Below, in pieces: positions 5,787 to 23,277 of a stretch of 64,000 nucleotides of DNA. The translations under genes and the position numbers were made by a program. Origin of the DNA: Candidatus Omnitrophota bacterium (GTDB lineage Bacteria > Omnitrophota > Gorgyraeia > Duberdicusellales > 4484-171); NCBI GenBank assembly GCA_041652815.1, contig JBAZGN010000003.1, positions 129,530 to 193,529 of the forward strand, given 5' to 3'. A model generated the notes under the pieces. The model searched no databases. It saw only the letters and a program-made list of their open reading frames with translations, and was not told where the DNA came from. Position 1 is the first letter of the stretch. The number at the start of each line of letters is the position of its first letter.

Positions 5787-7118
5787 ATGGCTGAAGATAG
5801 ATTATCAAAAATAGTATCTCTGTGCAGAAGGCGTAGCTTTGTTTTTGGAGGCTCGGAAATATACGGCGGGCTGGGAAGCTTCTGGGACTACGGGCCTTTA
5901 GGCGCCAGGCTTAAAAAACGCATTAAAGATATCTGGTGGGATACTTACGTAGAAAAGAAAGAAGACATCCTGGGGTTGGATAGCAGCATAATAATGCATG
6001 AAGATGTCTTTAAGGCTTCCGGTCACTTAGAAGGGTTCACTGATTCATTGGTTGATTGCCCTAAATGCAAAAAGCGATTTCGCATAGATAAACTTGAAAA
6101 AATAAATGAAAATCTATACCGCTGCGCGGAATGCAAAAGTGATATAGATAGCACTAAACACAAACCCCGCAAATTTAACCTGATGCTCAAGACAAACGTA
6201 AGCGCAACCGAAGATGAACCGAACTACGGGTATCTGCGGCCGGAAACTGCTCAAGGCATATTTACAAACTTTATAAATGTATTGAATTCAACCCACAAGA
6301 AACTTCCCTTTGGCATTGCTCAAATAGGAAAAGCATTCAGGAACGAAGTTACGACCGGAAGCTTTATTTTCAGAATGAAAGAATTTGAACAGATGGAAAT
6401 AGAATATTTCGTAAAGCCACAAGACGCAGCTAAAGCGTACGAATATTGGGTGAAGGAACGGTTTGATTTTTACACTTCGAAACTTGGAATTAGGAAGGAA
6501 AACTTAAGGCTGCGCGAGCACGAAAAAGATGAGCTCGCACACTATGCTAAAAGCTGCACAGATATTGAATATAACTTTCCCTTTGGCTGGAGCGAGCTTG
6601 AAGGTATCGCCAACAGGGGTAACTTCGATTTAACCGAACATGCGCGCGTAAGCAAAAAAGACCATAGCTATTTTGACGAAGCCACAAAAGAAAAATTTAT
6701 TCCCTATGTTATCGAGCCATCAGCAGGGGTAGACAGGACATTTTTTGCCGTAATTTCTGATGCTTACCATGAAGAAGAAGTAAATGGGAAAACAAGAGTG
6801 GTACTTAAACTTAAACCGAGCCTTGCTTCTAATTACGCGGCAATTTTTCCGCTTTTAAAAAATAAACCGGAACTGGTTGAGCTTGCAAAAAAAATTTTTT
6901 ATGATATAAAAGATAAATTCCCTGCTACTTATGACGATACCGGCGCAATAGGGAAATTATACCGTCGACAGGATGAAATCGGAACACCTTTCTGCATAAC
7001 TGTCGATGTCGAAAGCCTCACCGATAGTAAAGTTACAATCAGAGACAGGGACACAATGAAACAGGAACGAATAGGTATTGAAAAGATTCTGGAATATATC
7101 GAAGCAAAAATAAAATAG
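5787..7118 (+). CDS. glyQS: Glycine--tRNA ligase (alpha2 homodimeric type)
   Basis: Class II aaRS GlyRS signature throughout. Start chosen at ATG 5787 (MAEDRLSKIV...); the ORF-track 5' extension overlaps a leader hairpin. Confidence 0.85.
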   Translation: MAEDRLSKIVSLCRRRSFVFGGSEIYGGLGSFWDYGPLGARLKKRIKDIWWDTYVEKKEDILGLDSSIIMHEDVFKASGHLEGFTDSLVDCPKCKKRFRIDKLEKINENLYRCAECKSDIDSTKHKPRKFNLMLKTNVSATEDEPNYGYLRPETAQGIFTNFINVLNSTHKKLPFGIAQIGKAFRNEVTTGSFIFRMKEFEQMEIEYFVKPQDAAKAYEYWVKERFDFYTSKLGIRKENLRLREHEKDELAHYAKSCTDIEYNFPFGWSELEGIANRGNFDLTEHARVSKKDHSYFDEATKEKFIPYVIEPSAGVDRTFFAVISDAYHEEEVNGKTRVVLKLKPSLASNYAAIFPLLKNKPELVELAKKIFYDIKDKFPATYDDTGAIGKLYRRQDEIGTPFCITVDVESLTDSKVTIRDRDTMKQERIGIEKILEYIEAKIK

Positions 7119-9895: not shown

Positions 9896-10717
9896 ATGGA
9901 AGCAATAAAAGCATACTTGGATAGGATAAAACACATTTCTCTTCTTTCTAAGAGCGAAGAAGAGGATTTGATACGCAAAGCAAAACGCGGCAACCGTGAA
10001 GCACGGCGTAAAATCATAAACGCCAATCTTAAGCTGGTTGTAAACATTGCCAAACATTACAGCCACTTTGACCTGCCGCTGATGGATTTAATTGCTGAGG
10101 GCAATATCGGGCTTATGCGCGCAATTGACAAATTCAATATCGGCAAAGGCTTTCGTTTTTCAACTTACGCTGCCTGGTGGATACGGCAAGCAATTTCCCG
10201 GGCGCTGATTGACCAGGGCAAAACCATTCGTATACCGGTTTATATGAGCGAATTTATGTCCAAATACAAGAAAATAAACGAAAGCCTGCGGCAGAAATTA
10301 AAAAGGGAACCCAGTAGAAGCGAAATAGCTGTTAAGATAAAACTTCCGGTTGAAAAAGTCGGAGAAATAGAAATGTGGATGCAGAAAAAAGCTTCGCTCG
10401 AAGCTCCAGTAGGAGAAGACGGCGAATCTCAATTGGGAGATTTTATCCAGGGAAGCGAATATGCCGATACCAATAAGGAAGTTGAGAAGTTTTTTGACCA
10501 TGAAAGAGTTGTGCATTTGTTAGACTTCGTTACAGAAAGAGAGCGGCAAGTCCTTAATTTACGCTTCGGCATAGAAAACGGCAAATCACATACATTAGCG
10601 GAAGTTTCAAAAATTTTAAACGTTTCACGGGAACGTGTAAGACAAATCGAAAAAGACGCGTTAATAAAACTTAAAAAATACTCCGTGCAGGAACAGCAGA
10701 AAGACCTGGAAATTTAA
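9896..10717 (+). CDS. RNA polymerase sigma-70 family factor (RpoD/SigA-like, regions 2-4)
   Basis: Region 2 (DLIAEGNIGLMRAIDKFNIGKGFRFSTYAAWWIRQAI) and region 4.2 (TLAEVSKILNVSRERVRQIE) are present. Confidence 0.85.
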   Translation: MEAIKAYLDRIKHISLLSKSEEEDLIRKAKRGNREARRKIINANLKLVVNIAKHYSHFDLPLMDLIAEGNIGLMRAIDKFNIGKGFRFSTYAAWWIRQAISRALIDQGKTIRIPVYMSEFMSKYKKINESLRQKLKREPSRSEIAVKIKLPVEKVGEIEMWMQKKASLEAPVGEDGESQLGDFIQGSEYADTNKEVEKFFDHERVVHLLDFVTERERQVLNLRFGIENGKSHTLAEVSKILNVSRERVRQIEKDALIKLKKYSVQEQQKDLEI

Positions 10718-11255: not shown

Positions 11256-11345
11256 ACTGGAAACCTGGTTCATACCGTAAAATTCTGGATAATAAGACAC
11301 CAAAAAACCGTTATTTCTTATCAAGCTTATTTGGCTTGATTTCTT

Positions 11346-11418
11346 GCCCCTATAGCTCAAACGGACAGAGCGCGGCCCTCCTAAGGCTGAAATCCCCGTT
11401 CGACTCGGGGTGGGGGCA
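11346..11418 (+). tRNA. tRNA-Arg(CCT)
   Basis: Hand-folded cloverleaf: acceptor GCCCCTA/TGGGGGC, D-stem GCTC/GAGC, anticodon loop CTCCTAA (anticodon CCT), T-arm CCCCG-TTCGACT-CGGGG. CCA is not encoded. Confidence 0.8.
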
Positions 11419-11563
11419 TGGTTTAACACCCTTTAACGTCTCACAGCCTATCGATTTGCCTTTACGCCCTTACAGGCAGGTGTCGGATACACTGCAAAGA
11501 AAGCTTTGGCTTACAGCCAAAGAGTGTATACGACTCGGGGTGGGGGCATGGTTTAACACCCTT
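11401..11563. repeat. 33-bp perfect direct repeat (11401-11433 and 11531-11563) duplicating the tRNA-Arg 3' end plus 13 nt downstream
   Basis: The sequence cgactcggggtgggggcatggtttaacaccctt occurs twice, 130 bp apart. A small hairpin (ctttggcttacagccaaag) lies between the copies. Confidence 0.8.
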
Positions 11564-11708
11564 TGTATCACGTCCCACGTAACAAGTATCATGTTTAAGA
11601 CCTGTTACGTACCACTTGTTACTTGTTACCTTCTACATGGCTACGCAACCGCTTAACACAATCGACAGAAACTAAGCTATTCTTTTCATTAAAAAACCAC
11701 CTTTTGCC

Positions 11709-11736
11709 TTGCTGAATTGCAGTTATTTGGTATAAT
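11709..11736 (+). promoter_or_regulatory. Putative sigma-70 promoter for rpsU (TTGCTG-16-TATAAT)
   Basis: Near-consensus hexamers with 16-nt spacing, about 20 nt upstream of the rpsU RBS. Confidence 0.45.
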
Positions 11737-11757
11737 AAAAAGAATTAGGAGAAAAAT

Positions 11758-11919
11758 ATGGCTGAAGTACGCATAGAAAAAAGAGAAGATTTTGAGAAAG
11801 CCCTACGCGCATTTAAAATGCAATGCAAGCGTGAGGGTATATTACAGGATTTCAAAGACCGTCAATATTACACTAAACCTTCTCAAAAAAGGCGGGAAAA
11901 CGCAAAGAAGAAACGTTAA
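11758..11919 (+). CDS. rpsU: 30S ribosomal protein S21
   Basis: 53 aa, MAEVRIEKREDFEKALRAFKMQCKREGILQDFKDRQYYTKPSQKRRENAKKKR. RBS AGGAG. Too short for the ORF track. Confidence 0.85.
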   Translation: MAEVRIEKREDFEKALRAFKMQCKREGILQDFKDRQYYTKPSQKRRENAKKKR

Positions 11920-11997: not shown

Positions 11998-12276
11998 ATG
12001 AATTGCGAAGAAATAAAAATAATAATACCCTCCTACATAAAGCACACCGCTACCGACCAGGACATATCAAAAGTAGAAGAACATTTATGTATCTGCGATA
12101 GTTGCCGGCAGCACCTTGCGCAATTAATGAATAAGCCAAGCGCTATACCTATGCCGCAGAAAGAAACTCTTCCTGAAATACCCATGAAAAAAGACACAAA
12201 CATATTAGAGTATGTTATGCTTGGCATAGGTGTTGTCGTGTTACTTTTTGTAGTTTTTCTTTTAATAAAGGGGTAG
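11998..12276 (+). CDS. Anti-sigma factor, zf-HC2 (ZAS) type, with C-terminal TM helix
   Basis: Motif EEHLCICDSCRQHL (H-x3-C-x2-C) near the N-terminus. Hydrophobic C-terminal segment. Confidence 0.6.
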   Translation: MNCEEIKIIIPSYIKHTATDQDISKVEEHLCICDSCRQHLAQLMNKPSAIPMPQKETLPEIPMKKDTNILEYVMLGIGVVVLLFVVFLLIKG

Positions 12277-12310
12277 CTAAATACTACCTTCTTAGGTATT
12301 GCAAAAAACC

Positions 12311-13030
12311 ATGAAAATTACTACCCGCGAGAAAGAAGACGTCGTTATACTTGATTTGGAAGGAAGCATTGATATCAATTCTTCGGATTTCGTAGAAACC
12401 GTAGGATGGGCCCTGGTTACAAAATCCAAGAATATACTGTGTAATTTTGAAGGAATAAACCTAATCGATTATGTCGGTATATCGCTGATTGCGGTTGCTT
12501 ATAAAAACATTCTAAACCATAAAGGCAGAATGAAACTTTGTAACGTGCCTTCTCATGTACAAAAGTTATTTTCAATAGTAGGCCTGGATAAAGTATTTAC
12601 TTACTATGAAAATGAGGACGAAGCCGTAAAAAGCTTTACAGAAGAAGTATTGTTCTCACACATTCTTGAACAGAGGCTTCGCCGGCGGTTTAAACGTATA
12701 CCTTTACATAACATTATCGAGTATAAACAAAAATATTCAACGAAAGATGTTTTCTACAAGGGTAGAATAATCAATTTAAGTGCCATAGGTGTATTTATAG
12801 CCGCAGAGAAAGTATTTTCGATAGGCGAAATACTTACCACGCGCATAGATTTAACCCCTGCGCCAGGAGTCATCGAGGTTGACTCCAAGGTTGTCTGGGA
12901 ATCCGATAACGAAATCCAACCTATGGAATCTCCGGGTATGGGGCTTGAATTTTGCAACATAAGCCCCAAGGTCCAGGAACAAATTATAGATTTTGTAGAA
13001 AAACACCTTACGCATAGCTCTCAGGAGTAA
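12311..13030 (+). CDS. STAS-domain anti-sigma-factor antagonist fused to a C-terminal PilZ domain
   Basis: N-terminal MKITTREKEDVVILDLEGSIDINSS is a SpoIIAA-like STAS fold pattern. C-terminal RRRFKRIPLH...GRIINLSAIGVFIA is PilZ-like (RxxxR...D/NxSxxG). The ORF-track start at 12299 is a TTG. Confidence 0.6.
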   Translation: MKITTREKEDVVILDLEGSIDINSSDFVETVGWALVTKSKNILCNFEGINLIDYVGISLIAVAYKNILNHKGRMKLCNVPSHVQKLFSIVGLDKVFTYYENEDEAVKSFTEEVLFSHILEQRLRRRFKRIPLHNIIEYKQKYSTKDVFYKGRIINLSAIGVFIAAEKVFSIGEILTTRIDLTPAPGVIEVDSKVVWESDNEIQPMESPGMGLEFCNISPKVQEQIIDFVEKHLTHSSQE

Positions 13031-13152: not shown

Positions 13153-13737
13153 ATGAATATTATTATAATCATTTTCATTGCCGCCGGGGTCATCTTTACG
13201 TTATACGCTTTCATAGCTTCAACCAGCGAAACAAAAGATAAAAAACGAAAAGAAAGCAGCATCTTTGACCTTAAACAACAGGTCATTTCCTCAAATGTAA
13301 AAATACAAAATCTGGAGTTCGATAATTCATCGCTACGTACTGAAATGGAAAAATTGCGCAGCGAACTTACGGCTGCCAAAGAAGATTTAAACGATTCCCG
13401 CGAAAATGAAGGCGCCATCAAAGAAGACTTACAAAATATGCGGCTTGCTGAAGACAGCCTTAAATCAACTCTTGATACGCTTCGCGCGGAAAATGAAAGC
13501 CTAAAAGACAAACTCATGGAAAAAGAAAATGAAAATAAGAGGCTTCTCGACGAAAATAAAGATTTTAGAGAAAGAATGAAAATAAAACCGGCAGGCGCAC
13601 CTAACAGCGAAATAGATACGGTTAAGAAAAACATAACCGACGCGATACATAATATAGAAAAGAAAAATATAGAAGATAGCCAAAAGAATAAAGAAACGAA
13701 AATTGATAAAGATACCGAAAGTAAGGATTCCCTATAA
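13153..13737 (+). CDS. Membrane-anchored coiled-coil protein (hypothetical)
   Basis: N-terminal TM helix followed by a long charged heptad-like region (LEFDNSSLRTEMEKLRSELTAAKEDL...). The antisense ORF 13098..13787 is low complexity. Confidence 0.5.
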   Translation: MNIIIIIFIAAGVIFTLYAFIASTSETKDKKRKESSIFDLKQQVISSNVKIQNLEFDNSSLRTEMEKLRSELTAAKEDLNDSRENEGAIKEDLQNMRLAEDSLKSTLDTLRAENESLKDKLMEKENENKRLLDENKDFRERMKIKPAGAPNSEIDTVKKNITDAIHNIEKKNIEDSQKNKETKIDKDTESKDSL

Positions 13738-13961: not shown

Positions 13962-14294
13962 ATGACCTTACAAAATATAATTGATAAACTCTCTAGCATA
14001 AATATCACGGAGAAACGCACGATATCCGAGGAGTACGACGAAATAGTTATTTTGAATAAAGATATCAGTGCATTAAATAAAATATTTGCTGACATCTTCG
14101 GAGAACCTGAAAAAAAGCAAGGGGTGAAGCCCTCTAAAGATATCTTACTCTTAACTGAAGATTATGGCGGTGTTTGGGAAAATCAAACCCTTTTCAAAAA
14201 AGATAATGGACAAAATATCATAATCGCTATGCTTTGGCCGTGGCAGGACAATATACATACCACATTAAAAATGGCAACAATAAAGAGTAAATAG
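13962..14294 (+). CDS. Hypothetical protein
   Basis: 110-aa ORF with no recognisable motif. Confidence 0.35.
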   Translation: MTLQNIIDKLSSINITEKRTISEEYDEIVILNKDISALNKIFADIFGEPEKKQGVKPSKDILLLTEDYGGVWENQTLFKKDNGQNIIIAMLWPWQDNIHTTLKMATIKSK

Positions 14295-14296
14295 AC

Positions 14297-14950
14297 ATGA
14301 AATATATTTTTATATTTTTAATTTTACTGTTTTTTTCGTTAAATCTTCAGGCAAAAGAGTATAAATACATCGAAAGAATAAAAGATTGCTATACAGATAT
14401 ATTCTGGAAAATAAGATCGGAAAAGTACTGGACCGTGCTTGAAACGAAACACGCTCAAGAAACCTACACCACGACAAATGATTCGCATCTAAATGCCTTA
14501 GAGTGGCATCTGGTAAATACCACCGACAAAACAGATATTCTAGCTAAACGGCGAAAAGATTTAATCACGATAAGCGGGGTTTTTAAATCAAAACCGATAG
14601 AAAGAAGCATAAAAATCGACAAAGACCCCTGGTACCAACCAATGTCTTTTTCATTATCAAAACTCGCAAAGTCGAGAGGAAAAGCCATCACCTTTTGGAC
14701 GTTAAATCCTATGGACCTAAAGCCATATAAAATGAAGGCTTTAAATTACGGAAAAGAAACAATAAATGTAAACGGAAAAGAAATAAAAACCTATAAGATA
14801 AAAGTTATTCTTACCGGTTTTCGCTCAATGTTCTGGCATGCCTTTTATTGGTACCGCGTAGATGATAATGCCCTTGTGCAATATAAAGGCGCTGACGGCC
14901 CACCAACAAGCCCCATAACCGTAATTAACCTGGTAGAAGAAAGTTTTTAA
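14297..14950 (+). CDS. Secreted hypothetical protein
   Basis: Signal peptide MKYIFIFLILLFFSLNLQA. Tightly follows the upstream gene. Confidence 0.5.
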   Translation: MKYIFIFLILLFFSLNLQAKEYKYIERIKDCYTDIFWKIRSEKYWTVLETKHAQETYTTTNDSHLNALEWHLVNTTDKTDILAKRRKDLITISGVFKSKPIERSIKIDKDPWYQPMSFSLSKLAKSRGKAITFWTLNPMDLKPYKMKALNYGKETINVNGKEIKTYKIKVILTGFRSMFWHAFYWYRVDDNALVQYKGADGPPTSPITVINLVEESF

Positions 14951-14998
14951 ACCTTAGGCAGAGGAGAGACCACTCTTAGAGGGGTATCCTTTTATCGG

Positions 14999-15027
14999 TT
15001 TACAAAATCCTAAGTTTGTGTTATACT
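14999..15027 (+). promoter_or_regulatory. Near-consensus sigma-70 promoter (TTTACA-17-TATACT)
   Basis: Hexamers at 14999-15004 and 15022-15027, followed by a GT-rich leader of about 80 nt and the RBS of the 15108 gene. Confidence 0.5.
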
Positions 15028-15107
15028 CTTTCTGTGTTTTTTAGTGGTTTTTAGTGTTTTATGGTGTTCTCATAAATCCAAATTACTAAATAAATCAGGA
15101 GGAAGTA

Positions 15108-15320
15108 ATGGCGAGTAAAGCAAAAAAAGGCAGGCCTAAAAAGGTAGTAAAATACACAAAAACGATAAATGTCCGGTTAACCCGGGAACAATGGGTTGAG
15201 ATATTAAACTGGGCAGAAAAGGCCCACCTGGAACCATCCGTATACATACGAAAGATAGTCCTGGATTTTTTAAACATTCATTACAATCCGCAAGGCGTAA
15301 CAACCAGTCCCCAAAAGTAA
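15108..15320 (+). CDS. Ribbon-helix-helix DNA-binding protein, MobC/CopG-like
   Basis: Motif KYTKTINVRLTREQWVEILNWAEKAHLEPSVYIRKIVLDF is an RHH pattern typical of mobilisation or plasmid accessory proteins. RBS AGGAGG. Confidence 0.5.
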   Translation: MASKAKKGRPKKVVKYTKTINVRLTREQWVEILNWAEKAHLEPSVYIRKIVLDFLNIHYNPQGVTTSPQK

Positions 15321-15383
15321 GCTCGAGACGGAAAGATTTAACCCCATTAATAGCAATACCTGAACCCACCAGGCAGAACAAAG

Positions 15384-15409
15384 AGAATGTACCTTGAGAA
15401 TGTACCTTA
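15384..15409. repeat. 13-bp tandem repeat x2 (gagaatgtacctt)
   Basis: Perfect tandem duplication directly downstream of the RHH gene. Confidence 0.7.
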
Positions 15410-15883
15410 CTTCCTATAATATATCTTATGTTAACTTTTATTATTGTCTAAAATCAGCTAATAGCTAATAGGGTCAATCATTTATTGAATTATTATAAAA
15501 AGCTGTGAATTCAAGGCGGGCTTCTTACCTCTATCTATATATTCTTACTTTATGTTTATTACCGTATTCTTCCAAGCCTATAAGAATCCTACCGGAAACT
15601 AGCCTTATAATACCCCTAAATCAGTCAAAATAGCCTCGATTTTAGCTTTAAAATACGGGATAGGGTTTGTCTATGGCGGGAAATAAAAAAGGCCGATAAG
15701 GGAGATTTTCCGATGCAACCCAGCTGCCGTAGCAGCTCCAACTGCCTAGCTTGCTTTGGTCTAAAGCAACGGCTTGTTGTACTACTTTAGGCCTGTGGCT
15801 TTGCGACCCCCGGCTTTCGCGACGGGGTTTACCCTTACCGGCAATTAATATATACAATATATTTTTATTATTTTCAAGTAGGC

Positions 15884-17867: not shown

Positions 17868-18233
17868 TTAAAAGATATTTGAAGGTTTCGATATCGAAGT
17901 AAGATAAGACATGAGGCAGCGACGGTCGGTTTCTTTTATTTCGCTAAAGTATATACCAAGACAGTATGATTGTTTACCATTGTCCTGCACGTGTTCGCTT
18001 CGAACGACTACACCCTTACAGTTTATTTTTTTTACGTTTTTATGGTTAGCCTTATTAAGCGGCACAAGCAAAACTATATCAAGTTTAGTCATCGGCGCAA
18101 TAGCTTTGTTTACCGCACAATACGCACCGCTACCACTTATATTTTTGGTTTCTGTAACCAGATCACAGTCAGCTGCACAAAGCTTTAAGGCAAGATTACC
18201 TTCGATGCGGGGATAACTTCTTTTTTCGCTCAT
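17868..18233 (-). CDS. PilZ-domain protein
   Basis: Motif RSYPRIEGNLALKL...KNISGSGAY is the PilZ RxxxR...DxSxxG signature. Confidence 0.6.
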   Translation of the reverse strand: MSEKRSYPRIEGNLALKLCAADCDLVTETKNISGSGAYCAVNKAIAPMTKLDIVLLVPLNKANHKNVKKINCKGVVVRSEHVQDNGKQSYCLGIYFSEIKETDRRCLMSYLTSISKPSNIF

Positions 18234-18767: not shown

Positions 18768-19856
18768 TCAAATAAAGGCTCCGAATTCCTTCAGTGTTTT
18801 GCTTATCAGGCCCTCGGAAATTCCACCGACAACCTTTACCTTGCCAATTGACTCAAGCAATACCAGCCTAAACTGGCCCGAAACATTTTTTTTGTCGTAA
18901 CTCATTGCTTTATAGATAGTTTTAAAATCATATTTATATTTAACGGGAAGCTCGAATTTTTTAAGCAGGTCACGTATCTGACAAATTTCATTCATACTGC
19001 AAAGCCCCACTCTATTTGACAGAAAAGCCGCATAAAGCATGCCTAAGCTTACCGCTTCTCCATGCGAAATTTTCTTGTATTTTGAAGCTGCCTCAAGTGC
19101 ATGCGCAAAAGTATGGCCGAAGTTAAGTATAGTTCGTATGGATTTTTTTTCCACCTCGTCAATTTCTACTATTTTTGCTTTTATATTGGCACAAACATCG
19201 ATAACTTTTAAAATCGAAGAAGGCTTTAAGGAAAGAATTTCCCGGTAGTTTTTTAATAAAAAAATAAAAAACGCGCTGTTTTTAATAACTGCGTATTTTA
19301 CGGCCTCGGCAATACCTTCCTTGACTTGTTTCTTTTTTAAAGTATTTAGAAAATTTGGGTCAATAAATACAACTTTTGGCTGATAAAATGCGCCTAATAT
19401 ATTTTTTGCCTCTTTAAGGTCAATTGCGGTTTTTCCGCCTATGCTTGCATCAATTTGAGAGAGTAATGTAGTTGGAACCTGCACGTAAGGAATCCCCCTT
19501 TTGTATATCGAGGCAGCAAAACCTCCTACATCCCCCACCGTGCCTCCGCCTATGCAAACGATAAAAACTTTTCTATCTAGTTTGTTTGTCTTTATTATTT
19601 CTTGTATTATTCTAAACAAACTTTCTTTCGTTTTCGCACGCTCCCCGTCAGGAAGGACAATTATACGATGAGGAAAATTGGTAAAGGATTTTTCTATTTT
19701 CTTTCTGTAAAAAGCAAGGACACTGCGTGAGGCGAGAATTATTGCGAAATTTCCAAGGTTAAGCCCCTTAATACGAGAGCTGATGTTCTTAAATAAATTT
19801 TGTTCTATATATATATTATAAGGATTTTTAGATAAATTAATTTTTATAACTTTCAT
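18768..19856 (-). CDS. aroB: 3-dehydroquinate synthase
   Basis: Motifs GGGTVGDVGGFAASIYKRGIPYVQVPTTLLSQIDASIGGKTAIDL. Start at MKVIKINLS overlaps the upstream stop as ATGA. Confidence 0.85.
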   Translation of the reverse strand: MKVIKINLSKNPYNIYIEQNLFKNISSRIKGLNLGNFAIILASRSVLAFYRKKIEKSFTNFPHRIIVLPDGERAKTKESLFRIIQEIIKTNKLDRKVFIVCIGGGTVGDVGGFAASIYKRGIPYVQVPTTLLSQIDASIGGKTAIDLKEAKNILGAFYQPKVVFIDPNFLNTLKKKQVKEGIAEAVKYAVIKNSAFFIFLLKNYREILSLKPSSILKVIDVCANIKAKIVEIDEVEKKSIRTILNFGHTFAHALEAASKYKKISHGEAVSLGMLYAAFLSNRVGLCSMNEICQIRDLLKKFELPVKYKYDFKTIYKAMSYDKKNVSGQFRLVLLESIGKVKVVGGISEGLISKTLKEFGAFI

Positions 19857-20485
19857 ATTGCAGCCTTTATATTTAACAATGAAAAAATAGAACCTACTAT
19901 CGGCAGCATAAACCATTTTAAAAAACCTATCATAATCAGCAAAATTATGATAAATGAACCAATCGTCTCCATTTTAAGATATAAGTAAGAAAGTTTATAG
20001 GGAAGAATAGCACTTAAAACCCTGGAACCATCAAGGGGCGGTATGGGTATGAGATTAAAAATACCCAGGATAAGATTAATCAGTATCCCCTCTATAATTA
20101 TTTCTGGAATAAACAAATAATTCGTAGCCTTAAGCAGGCCGGTTAATAAAAGCGCTATAATAAAATTAATCGCTGGCCCGGCTAAACCTACCCAAAGTAT
20201 ATCTTTTTTCGGATTCTTGAAATGATATGGATTAATGGGAACGGGTTTTGCATATCCGAAAGCAAATTTTCCACTGCTCAAAACAAGTAAAAGAATCGGG
20301 AGTATCAGTGTCCCGAAAATGTCTATATGCGCTAACGGATTAAGGGTTAGGCGGCCGCTTGCCTTAGGCGTTGGGTCTCCGAATTTTGTTGCGACAAACC
20401 CATGTGAATATTCATGAAGCGTTATCGATACGAATAGTATTACACCGATAAAAACAAAATTTAAAATATCAACAGGTTGAATCAT
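19853..20485 (-). CDS. Site-2 protease family (peptidase M50) membrane metalloprotease
   Basis: HEYSHGFVA (HExxH) inside a TM helix, with multiple TM segments. Confidence 0.7.
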   Translation of the reverse strand: MIQPVDILNFVFIGVILFVSITLHEYSHGFVATKFGDPTPKASGRLTLNPLAHIDIFGTLILPILLLVLSSGKFAFGYAKPVPINPYHFKNPKKDILWVGLAGPAINFIIALLLTGLLKATNYLFIPEIIIEGILINLILGIFNLIPIPPLDGSRVLSAILPYKLSYLYLKMETIGSFIIILLIMIGFLKWFMLPIVGSIFSLLNIKAAI

Positions 20486-22233: not shown

Positions 22234-23277
22234 TTACAAGAAGGAACGCAAGTGTTTTCTGATGTCTTTCCGGTTAAGAATTTTCAGGAAAATTTCAACT
22301 ATCTGCGGGTCAAATTGCTTACCCATTTGATTACGTAACTCTTTTTCTATCTCCATAAGATGCATTTTTTTTCTGTAAGGCCTGCCAAAATACATTGCAT
22401 CAAATGCATCAAGCAAAGATAGTATCCTTGAGCCCAGAGGTATCTGGTCTTTACTGAATTTTGAAGGGTACCCTTTTCCGTCATACCGCTCATGATGATG
22501 TAAAATTATTGGTATAACCGGTTTTAATATTTCCAAGTCCTTTATCATCTCCACGCCCTTACGCGGATGTTTCATTATTATTTTATATTCCTCGTCGGTA
22601 AGCGGGGTCTGTTTTTTAAGTATCCCTGAGGGGAGTTGAATTTTTCCGGCGTCGTGCAAAAGCGATGCATATTCGAGCGATTTTGTTTCTGATTCAGAAA
22701 GTTTCATTTCTTTACCGATAGCTTTAATTAATTTAAATATACTTTTGGTGTGCAAGTATGAGGTCGGAACATACTGGTCAAGTAATTTTGTGAGCGACTT
22801 TATATAGTTTATCATTAACCTTTTTTCTTCGCGGTAAAGATTAAAAATCCTTAAGGATATGCTTATTTCTTCGGAAAGTGACAAAAACCATTTTTTTTCT
22901 AATTCATTGAATTCCGGGTTATTTGGATTACGTTTAAGATAAACAGCGCCAAGGGCATCGGCAAAAATAAAAGGATAAATCAGGCGGTTTCCGAGCATTA
23001 CTTCCTTCTCCTGATGCAATATTTCTTTCTCCCTGTTGGTAAGTATAGATATGCCTCCCTTTTTAAACGACTGGCTTTTGTCCTCAAGCCGCATCTTCAT
23101 AAACCCCTGGGTGTTAACATTTTTAAATACTACAGTCACTTTATCTGCCAAAAATGCATTTTTATATAACCGGCATATGCCCATTGCAAAATTTTTTATA
23201 TCGCCGGAAGTAGTAATCAGGCGGTATATCGTATGAAATGAAGAAAATATAGTTTTATACTTTTTCATAAGGATCAA
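22234..23277 (-). CDS. HD-GYP domain c-di-GMP phosphodiesterase
   Basis: Motifs HDAGK...HHERYDGKGYP (HD...HHExxDGxGYP). Confidence 0.8.
   Translation of the reverse strand: MILMKKYKTIFSSFHTIYRLITTSGDIKNFAMGICRLYKNAFLADKVTVVFKNVNTQGFMKMRLEDKSQSFKKGGISILTNREKEILHQEKEVMLGNRLIYPFIFADALGAVYLKRNPNNPEFNELEKKWFLSLSEEISISLRIFNLYREEKRLMINYIKSLTKLLDQYVPTSYLHTKSIFKLIKAIGKEMKLSESETKSLEYASLLHDAGKIQLPSGILKKQTPLTDEEYKIIMKHPRKGVEMIKDLEILKPVIPIILHHHERYDGKGYPSKFSKDQIPLGSRILSLLDAFDAMYFGRPYRKKMHLMEIEKELRNQMGKQFDPQIVEIFLKILNRKDIRKHLRSFL

What the first reader, a model, noticed from the sequence alone, without database searches (positions are those of the whole stretch)
11998..13030. Non-canonical partner-switching pair: ZAS-type membrane anti-sigma factor followed by a STAS-PilZ fusion
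A zf-HC2 anti-sigma factor (HLCICDSCRQHL with a C-terminal TM) has no adjacent ECF sigma. It is immediately followed by a protein fusing a SpoIIAA-like STAS anti-sigma antagonist domain to a PilZ domain. STAS antagonists normally pair with kinase-type anti-sigma factors such as RsbW, not ZAS proteins. The PilZ fusion suggests c-di-GMP-controlled sigma-factor release. The nearest sigma gene is a short sigma-70 at 9896-10717.
Basis: partly seen in the sequence, partly recalled or inferred. Interest (0 to 1): 0.65.

Follow-up and report, generated by a model that had tools for sequence, protein, structure and literature searches.

The report
Membrane zinc-finger anti-sigma plus c-di-GMP sensor
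In an uncultured Omnitrophota bacterium, a small membrane-anchored anti-sigma-like zinc-finger protein sits in a conserved operon with a protein that fuses an anti-sigma-antagonist domain, lacking its usual phosphorylation site, to a c-di-GMP sensor; this suggests, without proving, that the second messenger replaces a kinase in switching a sigma factor.

Summary
ORF 11998-12276 is a zf-HC2 protein with a C-terminal TM helix. ORF 12311-13030 is a STAS-PilZ fusion, and all domain hits exceed Pfam cut-offs. The window comes from Candidatus Omnitrophota.

New evidence:
- STAS-PilZ is a conserved family in the phylum. Its c-di-GMP motifs (RRxxxR, [N/D]xSxxG) are near-invariant.
- The SpoIIAA phospho-serine position is Tyr in 101 of 102 members.
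- The ZAS protein is tail-anchored, with no extracytoplasmic domain. Its C3/H29/C33/C36 ligands are invariant and align with the zinc ligands of RsiW.
- In 43 of 58 genomes the two genes share one tightly packed operon, ancestrally ZAS-uppP-STAS-PilZ.
- uppP dropped out at least three times while ZAS and STAS-PilZ stayed adjacent. The window shows this derived state.
- No ECF sigma, RsbW-type kinase or PP2C phosphatase lies in the window or the related loci.
- The only nearby sigma is a 273-aa protein that sources name RpoD/SigA or primary sigma.

Best reading (confidence about 0.35): a kinase-free switch in which c-di-GMP sets whether STAS engages the ZAS protein. No interaction is shown and the sigma target is unknown. 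An envelope-regulation role without a sigma is a serious rival. I rate it a new variant of a known kind, of moderate interest.

The parts
11998..12276 (+). Tail-anchored ZAS-type (zf-HC2) anti-sigma-like protein, 92 aa
   Evidence: Pfam zf-HC2 26.2 bits against a cut-off of 22.2. Homologues were found in 43 related loci. A profile of the family gives RsiW (5wuq) as the best PDB match, E 0.07.
11998..12135 (+). Conserved cytoplasmic zinc-finger domain (aa 1-46), with C3, H29, C33 and C36 (plus C31) and three predicted helices
   Evidence: C-x25-H-x3-C-x2-C is invariant in 44 of 44 sequences and 19 of 19. It aligns residue for residue with RsiW C3/H30/C34/C37, which are the zinc ligands in PMC5358783. 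Predicted helices span aa 3-14, 20-30 and 33-44 (low confidence).
12136..12192 (+). Short variable Pro-rich linker (aa 47-65); in relatives it is 20 to about 400 aa, acidic and Pro-rich
   Evidence: pLDDT is below 50 for aa 46-64. Relatives are 90-455 aa long with the TM helix always at the extreme C-terminus.
12193..12270 (+). C-terminal transmembrane anchor (aa 66-91), followed by a single residue
   Evidence: AF2 helix 66-91 with pLDDT above 90. A hydrophobicity scan places the TM helix last in all 44 homologues.
12311..13030 (+). STAS-PilZ fusion protein, 239 aa (an alternative TTG start at 12299 gives 243 aa)
   Evidence: Pfam STAS 57.8 bits and PilZ 53.8 bits. TIGR00377 61.3 bits. A 100% identical 239-aa protein, P0001, exists in Omnitrophota MAGs. 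AF2 pLDDT is 87.7.
12311..12610 (+). SpoIIAA-like STAS domain (aa 1-100)
   Evidence: phmmer against SpoIIAA gives E 1e-7. Foldseek against 1th8_B gives TM 0.85, rmsd 1.7 A and 29% identity.
12467..12484 (+). D53-Y54-V-G56-I-S58 motif; Tyr54 occupies the position of the phosphorylated Ser of SpoIIAA and RsbV
   Evidence: The pairwise alignment places D-Y-V-G against D-S-S-G of SpoIIAA. Position 54 is Y in 101 of 102 members and never S or T. It is Y in all 58 loci.
12614..12676 (+). Long connecting helix (aa 102-122) between STAS and PilZ
   Evidence: AF2 secondary structure.
12680..12697 (+). PilZ c-di-GMP switch motif RRRFKR (aa 124-129; RRxxxR)
   Evidence: R124, R125, F127 and R129 are invariant in 102 sequences. 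This is a lower-pLDDT loop, as expected for the flexible switch.
12698..13021 (+). PilZ beta-barrel and C-terminal helix (aa 130-237), including the NLSAIG ([D/N]xSxxG) motif at 12773-12790
   Evidence: N155 is present in 101 of 102, S157 in 100 of 102 and G160 in 102 of 102. Foldseek matches c-di-GMP-bound Alg44 (4rt0), YcgR (5y6g) and MapZ (5xly).
11758..11919 (+). rpsU (ribosomal protein S21), the upstream gene; a promoter-like TTGCTG-16-TATAAT lies at about 11711-11738. It may be co-transcribed with the pair
   Evidence: Pfam Ribosomal_S21 59.6 bits. rpsU lies upstream of ZAS in 19 loci. Sequence read. No plus-strand terminator-like site lies between 11919 and 12311.
9896..10717 (+). 273-aa sigma-70 family protein (regions 1.2-4), the only sigma gene found in the window; a candidate target but unproven
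   Evidence: Pfam and NCBIfam matches. Orthologues across Omnitrophota are 66-96% identical and 271-275 aa, and sources name them RpoD/SigA or primary sigma. The ppdk-sigma-apt block is syntenic in L012, L028, L061 and L062.
15711..15843 (-). Context: c-di-GMP-I riboswitch aptamer
   Evidence: Rfam RF01051 50.9 bits against a gathering score of 35.
17868..18233 (-). Context: stand-alone PilZ protein (121 aa) with RxxxR and NxSxxG
   Evidence: Pfam PilZ 35.5 bits. Motifs read.
22234..23277 (-). Context: HD-GYP-type c-di-GMP phosphodiesterase candidate
   Evidence: Pfam HD_5 138 bits. The HHERYDGKGYP motif is present.

Best explanation
The two genes are the core of a conserved Omnitrophota operon, ancestrally ZAS-uppP-STAS-PilZ and here ZAS-STAS-PilZ.

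The first product is a tail-anchored membrane protein. Its cytoplasmic N-terminus is a CHCC zinc bundle of the type that anti-sigma factors such as RsiW use to hold region 4 of a sigma. It has no extracytoplasmic part, so it cannot sense anything outside the cell.

The second product is a cytoplasmic c-di-GMP receptor (PilZ). Its output domain is a SpoIIAA-type STAS domain that cannot be phosphorylated at the canonical serine.

Proposed mechanism:
1. c-di-GMP binds the RRxxxR loop, which lies at the end of the long helix that leaves the STAS domain.
2. This repositions the PilZ barrel and changes whether the conserved alpha2 face of STAS (D53-Y54-x-G56 ... K65-N66-x-x-N69-H70) is free.
3. That face binds the ZAS zinc-finger domain and competes with a sigma factor held at the membrane.
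4. c-di-GMP level, rather than a kinase/phosphatase pair, therefore sets sigma availability.

Shown: the domains, the motifs, the missing phosphosite, the tail-anchored topology, the operon conservation, and the absence of a linked kinase, phosphatase or ECF sigma.

Inferred: the STAS-ZAS contact, the direction of the c-di-GMP effect, and the identity of the sigma. The sigma could be an unlinked ECF or, less likely, the syntenic 273-aa sigma.
For: 1. Domain identities are above curated cut-offs and confirmed by fold.
2. The PilZ binding motifs are near-invariant across 102 proteins and 58 loci.
3. The phospho-Ser position is Tyr in 101 of 102 members. A different input is therefore needed, and the fused PilZ can supply one.
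4. The ZAS protein has invariant C3/H29/C33/C36, aligned with the zinc ligands of RsiW (PMC5358783).
5. In all 44 ZAS sequences (43 loci plus the window) the TM helix is at the extreme C-terminus with no external domain. Any regulatory input must therefore be cytoplasmic or intramembrane.
6. The two genes share one operon in 43 of 58 loci, down to 48% STAS-PilZ identity. Gaps are mostly -4 to +16 nt. The flanks fall into 16 different families on each side.
7. uppP was lost from between them in at least three separate lineages while ZAS and STAS-PilZ stayed adjacent. The window carries no uppP at all.
8. No RsbW/SpoIIAB-like kinase, PP2C or ECF sigma is present among the window ORFs scanned, which cover most of its 64 kb, or in the loci.
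9. c-di-GMP signalling is active in this genome region: a riboswitch, a stand-alone PilZ and an HD-GYP protein.
10. There is a precedent for a STAS antagonist binding a non-kinase anti-sigma, HsbA-FlgM (PMC5085249). There is also a precedent for c-di-GMP controlling an anti-sigma complex, RsiG-sigma-WhiG (abstract of PMC13232838).
Against: - No interaction has been tested or modelled.
- The ZAS domain is only 46 aa with three helices. It lacks the fourth helix that canonical anti-sigma domains use on sigma region 2 (PMC5358783).
- No ECF sigma is linked, which is unusual for ZAS factors.
- The only nearby sigma is labelled RpoD/SigA or primary sigma by its sources. Its proximity may simply reflect the old rpsU-rpoD linkage (own knowledge, not tested here).
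- The ancestral operon includes uppP, often overlapping STAS-PilZ by 4 nt.
- The deep ZAS-less clade sits next to KdtA or an M23 peptidase with a small lipoprotein-like ORF. Both points suggest envelope biology rather than transcription.
- The AF2 inter-domain geometry is uncertain (pTM 0.58).
Confidence: 0.35

Rival explanations
1. Envelope module without a sigma factor. STAS-PilZ would be a c-di-GMP-dependent regulator or adaptor of membrane or envelope enzymes, such as undecaprenyl-phosphate recycling by UppP or other lipid-carrier or LPS steps. The tail-anchored zinc-finger protein would tether or recruit it at the membrane.
For: - The ancestral operon is ZAS-uppP-STAS-PilZ. uppP and STAS-PilZ overlap by 4 nt in 23 of 32 loci.
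- The ZAS-less clade lies beside KdtA-like genes, or beside an M23 peptidase with a small lipoprotein-like ORF.
- PilZ proteins commonly act post-translationally on polysaccharide machinery. The nearest folds include Alg44 and BcsA.
- STAS domains also work outside sigma control, for example MlaB and SulP (own knowledge).
- The ZAS domain lacks the fourth anti-sigma helix.
Against: - uppP was lost from the cluster at least three times while ZAS and STAS-PilZ stayed together. The window has no uppP in 64 kb.
- The STAS domain scores above the cut-off of the anti-sigma-antagonist model, and its nearest sequence and fold relatives are SpoIIAA and RsbV.
- zf-HC2 with CHCC ligands is otherwise an anti-sigma signature (PMC5358783).
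Confidence: 0.3
2. The two genes are operon neighbours with separate jobs. The ZAS protein would control an unlinked ECF sigma through redox chemistry at its CHCC site or through site-2 proteolysis. STAS-PilZ would act on an unlinked target, such as a distant RsbW-like protein or another enzyme.
For: - ZAS factors such as RsrA are redox sensors, and RsiW is removed by intramembrane proteolysis (PMC5358783).
- An M50-family peptidase gene lies at 19853-20485.
- STAS-PilZ clades exist without a neighbouring ZAS gene.
- The whole-genome gene content could not be examined.
Against: - The tight, long-lived co-location persists despite turnover of both flanks and repeated loss of the intervening uppP.
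- The two proteins are complementary: the ZAS protein lacks a sensor, and the STAS domain lacks a phosphosite and a kinase.
Confidence: 0.25
3. Chance ORFs or a mis-called domain architecture, so not a real feature.
For: Neither start codon has a strong Shine-Dalgarno sequence upstream.
Against: - Both proteins have many conserved homologues: 167 hits for STAS-PilZ and 19 close hits plus 43 locus copies for ZAS.
- Functional residues are invariant.
- Domain scores exceed the curated cut-offs.
Confidence: 0.02

Closest known systems
SpoIIAA-SpoIIAB-sigmaF and RsbV-RsbW-sigmaB partner switching (Bacillus)
   Same: The STAS domain is the nearest relative of SpoIIAA and RsbV by sequence (E 1e-7) and by fold (TM 0.85). 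The proposed logic, an antagonist that titrates an anti-sigma, is the same.
   Different: The phosphorylatable Ser is replaced by an invariant Tyr. No serine-kinase anti-sigma or PP2C phosphatase is linked. The neighbouring anti-sigma-like protein is a membrane ZAS, not a GHKL kinase. The input would be c-di-GMP through a fused PilZ domain.
HsbA-FlgM / HsbA-HsbD (Pseudomonas aeruginosa HptB pathway; PMC5085249)
   Same: A STAS antagonist binds a non-kinase anti-sigma (FlgM), and the pathway is tied to c-di-GMP signalling.
   Different: HsbA is still switched by phosphorylation of Ser56 by HsbR. Its c-di-GMP link is to a cyclase, so c-di-GMP is an output, not a fused receptor input. FlgM is soluble and is not a ZAS protein.
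RsiW-sigmaW, RsrA-sigmaR and other ZAS anti-sigma factors (PMC5358783)
   Same: An N-terminal cytoplasmic CHCC zinc bundle with the same ligand spacing (C3, H29/30, C33/34, C36/37), followed by a single TM helix.
   Different: There is no fourth helix, no extracytoplasmic domain (the protein is tail-anchored) and no co-transcribed ECF sigma. The linker between zinc finger and TM helix is disordered and varies from 20 to about 400 aa.
RsiG-sigmaWhiG (Streptomyces), where c-di-GMP controls an anti-sigma complex (mentioned in PMC13232838)
   Same: c-di-GMP level would decide whether a sigma factor is sequestered.
   Different: In RsiG the nucleotide is bound at the anti-sigma/sigma interface itself. 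Here a separate PilZ-containing antagonist would carry the signal. No homology to RsiG was seen.
Sensor-STAS fusions such as YtvA (LOV-STAS) and RsbR (own knowledge)
   Same: The principle is a sensory domain fused to a STAS output domain.
   Different: The sensor here is a C-terminal PilZ domain. There is no evidence for stressosome partners such as RsbS or RsbT.

Membership tests
ZAS (zf-HC2, class I anti-sigma domain) anti-sigma factors | H-x3-C-x2-C motif plus an upstream Cys or His zinc ligand near the N-terminus | tested here: met
   C3-x25-H29-x3-C33-x2-C36 is invariant in all 44 sequences. Pfam zf-HC2 scores 26.2 against 22.2. The motif aligns with RsiW ligands C3/H30/C34/C37.
ZAS (zf-HC2, class I anti-sigma domain) anti-sigma factors | A four-helix sigma-binding domain: three-helix bundle plus helix 4 | tested here: not met
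   Only three helices (aa 3-44) are predicted. Conservation ends at aa 46, followed by a variable Pro-rich or acidic linker. The AF2 model of this domain has low confidence (pLDDT 53-58), so the helix boundaries are approximate.
ZAS (zf-HC2, class I anti-sigma domain) anti-sigma factors | A co-transcribed or adjacent cognate ECF sigma gene | tested here: not met
   No ECF sigma among the window ORFs scanned with Pfam, which cover most of the 64 kb. None lies within about 6 kb in 58 loci (phmmer; Pfam context).
ZAS (zf-HC2, class I anti-sigma domain) anti-sigma factors | Binds and inhibits a sigma factor | not testable with these tools
   Needs biochemistry or multimer modelling.
SpoIIAA/RsbV-type anti-sigma factor antagonists (partner-switching STAS) | STAS fold with sequence membership | tested here: met
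   Pfam STAS 57.8 bits. TIGR00377 scores 61.3 against 53.45. Foldseek gives TM 0.85 to SpoIIAA.
SpoIIAA/RsbV-type anti-sigma factor antagonists (partner-switching STAS) | Phosphorylatable Ser or Thr in the D-S-x-G loop | tested here: not met
   Tyr54 aligns with the phospho-Ser of SpoIIAA. Position 54 is Y in 101 of 102 members and never S or T.
SpoIIAA/RsbV-type anti-sigma factor antagonists (partner-switching STAS) | A linked RsbW/SpoIIAB-type kinase anti-sigma and a PP2C phosphatase | tested here: not met
The rest of the genome was not examined.
PilZ c-di-GMP receptors | PilZ beta-barrel fold | tested here: met
   Pfam PilZ 53.8 bits. The AF2 barrel spans aa 135-215. Foldseek matches Alg44, YcgR and MapZ.
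PilZ c-di-GMP receptors | RxxxR and [D/N]xSxxG binding motifs | tested here: met
   R124, R125, F127 and R129 are invariant, giving the RRxxxR pattern. N155, S157 and G160 are present in 100-102 of 102 sequences.
PilZ c-di-GMP receptors | Binds c-di-GMP | not testable with these tools
   Needs ITC, DRaCALA or a similar assay.

The most novel reading that the evidence does not exclude
The membrane ZAS protein sequesters the 273-aa sigma that sources label RpoD/SigA or primary sigma, the only sigma found in the window. STAS-PilZ releases it in response to c-di-GMP. In these very small Omnitrophota cells a second messenger would then gate bulk transcription through a kinase-free partner switch acting on the main sigma factor.
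Probability: 0.1. Interest if true: 0.85.

Novelty: new variant of a known kind. Interest (0 to 1): 0.55.

Why it matters
If the proposed contact is real, this would be a partner-switching module in which c-di-GMP binding replaces serine phosphorylation. The antagonist would act on a zinc-finger membrane anti-sigma rather than on a kinase. That is a new route from c-di-GMP to transcription.

It would also give a first regulatory handle on Omnitrophota, a widespread uncultured phylum.

The system is compact: a 46-aa zinc domain and a 239-aa soluble protein with obvious point mutants (Y54, R124/R125/R129). It can therefore be tested in vitro without culturing the organism.

Full-text searches found no paper on a STAS-PilZ fusion, and the Galperin-Chou PilZ survey preprint does not mention STAS.

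Tried and rejected
- AF2 of the ZAS protein gave low confidence for the zinc domain (pLDDT 53-58). The Foldseek search with that model was meaningless, with the best E-value at 2.6. Fold-level membership in the anti-sigma domain class is therefore unsettled.
- The afdb50 structure library was not available. I could not get the taxonomic spread of full-length STAS-PilZ folds.
- The look-up of encoding contigs returned only short copies of the window's own contig. The window had to be annotated by direct Pfam scans instead.
- The genome-wide gene complement (ECF sigmas, RsbW, PP2C) of the source genome, and of the complete genomes CP070684.1 and CP070797.1, could not be fetched.
This is a weak negative.
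- More distant STAS-PilZ fusions (P0218, P0301, P0166) have no consistent kinase, phosphatase or ZAS neighbour. They did not give the hoped-for contrast between Ser-type and Tyr-type proteins.
- Literature searches for STAS with PilZ, PilZ with 'anti-sigma factor antagonist', and Omnitrophota with c-di-GMP found nothing specific.
- I considered and set aside three ideas: a gene-call artefact (rejected on conservation), an MlaB-like lipid-transport STAS (nearest relatives are SpoIIAA and RsbV, and no Mla genes are nearby), and tyrosine phosphorylation of Y54 (no evidence and no linked kinase).
- Mirror-tree or co-variation analysis was not attempted. There are only about 44 pairs, all sharing one phylogeny.
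Full report

Both ORFs exist as described.

- ORF 11998-12276 (+) encodes 92 aa. It matches Pfam zf-HC2 over aa 3-37 at 26.2 bits against a cut-off of 22.2. It contains HLCICDSCRQHL.
- The next ORF runs 12299-13030 from a TTG. The homologues are 239 aa, so the ATG at 12311 is the likely start.
- That protein matches STAS over aa 7-109 at 57.8 bits and PilZ over aa 128-234 at 53.8 bits (residue numbers of the 243-aa TTG-start ORF, four higher than the ATG-based numbering used below). Both are far above the cut-offs.
- It also matches NCBIfam TIGR00377 'anti-sigma factor antagonist' at 61.3 bits against 53.45.
- ORF 9896-10717 is a 273-aa sigma-70 family protein with regions 1.2, 2, 3 and 4.
- Pfam scans of most other large ORFs of the 64-kb window, leaving the ribosomal-protein block at about 49-63 kb only partly scanned, found housekeeping genes only. 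These include Mrp antiporter subunits, ppdk, apt, rpsU, thiamine, TCA and amino-acid enzymes, rpoA and ribosomal proteins.
- Those scans found no other sigma, no HATPase_c anti-sigma kinase and no PP2C/SpoIIE phosphatase.

**2. Source and family**

The STAS-PilZ protein is 100% identical to a protein from Candidatus Omnitrophota MAGs. A word-indexed search returned 167 relatives, and the best 120 are 52-100% identical. Almost all are about 239 aa with STAS plus PilZ. Where named, they are called 'anti-sigma factor antagonist' or 'PilZ domain-containing protein' from Omnitrophota.

A scan of one genome per species found 58 loci, nearly all titled Omnitrophota. A few carry 'uncultured Planctomycetia' or archaeal MAG labels, which are probably binning or labelling problems.

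An exhaustive profile search of 1.84 billion cluster representatives gave only 30 proteins at E <= 1e-30. Below these is a thin tail of more distant STAS-PilZ fusions of about 230-245 aa. Some of these keep a canonical Ser, with 'SSSG' or 'DSFG' motifs.

**3. Anatomy of the STAS-PilZ protein**

AlphaFold2 with 102 sequences gave pLDDT 87.7 and pTM 0.58. The model contains:

- a STAS domain (aa 1-100);
- a long helix (aa 102-122);
- a lower-confidence loop carrying RRRFKR (aa 124-129);
- a beta-barrel (aa 135-215);
- a C-terminal helix (aa 219-237).

Foldseek against the PDB matched the N-terminal half to SpoIIAA (1th8_B, TM 0.85, rmsd 1.7 A, 29% identity) and to RsbV. It matched the C-terminal half to c-di-GMP-bound PilZ domains of Alg44, YcgR, MapZ and BcsA. 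No solved chain spans both halves.

The two c-di-GMP motifs are essentially invariant. R124, R125, F127 and R129 are present in 102 of 102 sequences. N155 is present in 101, S157 in 100 and G160 in 102.

In the phmmer alignment to SpoIIAA, the query D53-Y54-V-G56 lies against D-S-S-G. Tyr54 therefore takes the place of the phosphorylated serine. That position is Tyr in 101 of 102 sequences, Gln once, and never Ser or Thr. It is Tyr in every one of the 58 loci. The canonical on/off switch of partner-switching antagonists is absent across the whole family.

**4. Anatomy of the ZAS protein**

All 44 sequences, from 43 loci and the window, carry an invariant C3-x25-H29-L-C31-[IV]-C33-x2-C36.

A profile of the family gives *B. 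subtilis* RsiW as its best PDB match (5wuq, E 0.07, marginal). The alignment places C3, H29, C33 and C36 on RsiW C3, H30, C34 and C37. These are the zinc ligands in the crystal structure, where three N-terminal helices form the zinc bundle and a fourth helix completes the sigma-binding domain (PMC5358783).

Here only three helices are predicted (aa 3-14, 20-30 and 33-44; low confidence). Conservation stops at aa 46.

What follows is a Pro-rich or acidic, apparently disordered linker. Its length varies from about 20 aa (window) to about 400 aa (L031, L025). A TM helix then ends the protein in every case. The protein is therefore tail-anchored. Its zinc domain and linker are cytoplasmic and it has essentially no external part. 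Unlike RsiW-type factors, it cannot receive an extracytoplasmic signal.

**5. Neighbourhood and its history**

BLAST mapping of the 58 loci shows ZAS and STAS-PilZ together in 43.

- In 32 of these, the order is ZAS-uppP(BacA)-STAS-PilZ.
- ZAS-to-uppP gaps are -4 to +16 nt, apart from one 91-nt gap.
- The uppP stop overlaps the STAS-PilZ start by 4 nt in 23 of 32 loci (BacA assignment).
- In 11, including the window, uppP is missing and ZAS abuts STAS-PilZ, with gaps of -4 to +79 nt. The window gap is 34 nt.

A neighbour-joining tree of STAS-PilZ places the uppP-less loci in at least three separate lineages: the window clade, L018/L022/L023, and L038. uppP therefore left the cluster repeatedly while the other two genes stayed adjacent. 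The window has no uppP anywhere.

The flanks are not conserved to the same degree. The gene upstream of ZAS falls into 16 families across 39 loci, and the gene downstream of STAS-PilZ falls into 16 families across 42 loci. This argues that the linkage is selected rather than left over from general synteny.

A deep clade of STAS-PilZ genes (L043-L056, 37-49% identical) has no ZAS gene within about 6 kb. These lie next to a KdtA-like gene, or next to an M23 peptidase with a small lipoprotein-like ORF. They still have Tyr54 and intact PilZ motifs.

**6. What is missing**

Nothing resembling an ECF sigma, RsbW/SpoIIAB or PP2C turned up in three places:

- the window ORFs scanned with Pfam;
- the 20-kb Pfam-annotated neighbourhoods of three relatives;

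The rest of the genome could not be inspected.

**7. The nearby sigma**

The 273-aa sigma belongs to a family found across Omnitrophota. Members are 66-96% identical and 271-275 aa. NCBI names them 'RNA polymerase sigma factor RpoD/SigA' or 'sigma-70 family', and JGI names them 'primary sigma factor'.

The family is more conserved than STAS-PilZ. It lies in a ppdk-sigma-apt block that is syntenic even in distant relatives, where 3-5 kb of other genes separate it from ZAS. It looks like the housekeeping sigma. Its closeness to rpsU may echo the classical rpsU-dnaG-rpoD linkage (own knowledge). It is a possible but not a favoured target.

**8. c-di-GMP context**

The same region holds several c-di-GMP elements:

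- a c-di-GMP-I riboswitch (15711-15843, minus strand, 50.9 bits);
- a stand-alone PilZ gene with both motifs (17868-18233, minus strand);
- an HD-GYP protein with HHERYDGKGYP (22234-23277, minus strand).

Relatives carry further c-di-GMP riboswitches and a REC-GGDEF gene nearby. c-di-GMP signalling is evidently in use.

**9. Mechanism and rivals**

The two proteins are complementary. One is an anti-sigma-like zinc domain tethered to the membrane with no sensor. The other is an antagonist-like STAS domain with no phosphosite and no kinase, but with a fused intact c-di-GMP receptor.

The most economical reading is a kinase-free switch. c-di-GMP binding at the RRxxxR loop, directly after the STAS C-terminal helix, would change the accessibility of the invariant STAS alpha2 face. 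That face would bind the ZAS zinc domain in competition with a sigma. I put this at about 0.35.

- Shown: the domains, the motifs, the Tyr substitution, the topology, the operon conservation and the absence of canonical partners nearby.
- Inferred: the contact, the sign of the response and the sigma.

The main rival (about 0.30) is an envelope module with no sigma. It rests on the ancestral, translationally coupled uppP and on the envelope genes next to the ZAS-less clade. Repeated loss of uppP with retention of the ZAS and STAS-PilZ pair argues against it.

A second rival (about 0.25) is that the two genes merely share an operon. In that case ZAS would be controlled by redox or site-2 proteolysis (an M50-family gene lies at 19853-20485), and STAS-PilZ would act elsewhere.

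An artefact is excluded by the conservation data.

**10. Comparison with known systems and novelty**

The module works like a partner-switching system but fails two defining features of that family. It also fails two features of canonical ZAS factors: the fourth helix and a linked ECF sigma.

Precedents exist for the individual ideas:

- a STAS antagonist binding a non-kinase anti-sigma (HsbA-FlgM, PMC5085249);
- c-di-GMP controlling an anti-sigma complex (RsiG-sigma-WhiG, mentioned in PMC13232838);
- sensor-STAS fusions such as YtvA (own knowledge).

Full-text searches found no paper on a STAS-PilZ fusion, and the Galperin-Chou PilZ survey preprint does not mention STAS. The proteins are in public databases only under generic names. 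I therefore rate it a new variant of a known kind, of moderate interest, with a compact hypothesis that can be tested in vitro.

**11. Limits**

- No interaction evidence.
- No whole-genome census.
- The ZAS fold model has low confidence.
- The inter-domain geometry of STAS-PilZ is uncertain.
- The afdb50 library was unavailable.

Noticed in passing
window 15711-15843 (-), within the gap 14951-15883: A c-di-GMP-I riboswitch (50.9 bits, with a 45-nt insertion in one hairpin) lies just downstream of the DUF2062 gene on the same strand. No credible ORF follows it on the minus strand. The only plausible gene in the roughly 930-bp gap is a 70-aa NikA-like ORF on the opposite strand (15108-15320). 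The riboswitch could therefore drive an antisense or non-coding transcript.
   Followed up: partly
window 11401-11434 and 11531-11564: A 34-nt exact direct repeat. The first copy spans the 3' end of tRNA-Arg(CCT) (11345-11419) plus 15 nt of flank. The second lies 130 nt downstream. It looks like an att-type scar of an element that once integrated at the tRNA.
   Followed up: partly
L031 3877-5244, L025 2733-3878, L013 4201-5268 (ZAS homologues): The linker between the zinc finger and the terminal TM helix grows to 250-400 aa of acidic, Pro-rich, internally repeated sequence in some lineages. It is about 20 aa in the window. The purpose of such a long tether is unknown.
   Followed up: partly
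L034 217-927 and 1018-1767: Two STAS-PilZ genes in tandem. The second copy has a degenerate RxxxR motif (KKARTSKR) but keeps D-Y-V-G.
   Followed up: no
L020 (CP070797.1, complete genome) 6028-6666: The STAS-PilZ gene is N-terminally truncated, starting at residue 19, and has neither ZAS nor uppP upstream. It may be a rearrangement or a pseudogene.
   Followed up: no
window 17868-18233 (-), 22234-23277 (-), 19853-20485 (-): A stand-alone PilZ gene, an HD-GYP phosphodiesterase candidate (HHERYDGKGYP) and a short (210 aa) M50-family peptidase gene all lie within 10 kb downstream of the pair. The same genes are present in relative L060.
   Followed up: partly
L061 5965-6077 (-), 6253-6451 (+), 18019-18177 (+); L062 5419-5603 (+): In distant relatives the space between apt and ZAS holds a cobalamin riboswitch with a TonB-dependent receptor. 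Further c-di-GMP riboswitches (types I and I-GGC) lie nearby, one of them ahead of an M48 peptidase gene.
   Followed up: no
window 13153-13737, 13962-14294, 14297-14950 (+): Three conserved genes of unknown function follow STAS-PilZ on the same strand in the window clade: a TM plus coiled-coil protein of 194 aa, a 110-aa protein and a 217-aa secreted-looking protein. None has a significant Pfam family. They may belong to the same transcription unit.
   Followed up: partly
L011, L013, L017, L018, L057, L046 and others (record titles): Several MAGs carrying this Omnitrophota-type operon are labelled 'uncultured Planctomycetia', 'Methanosarcinales archaeon' or 'Aenigmatarchaeota archaeon'. These are probably mislabelled or contaminated bins.
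   Followed up: no
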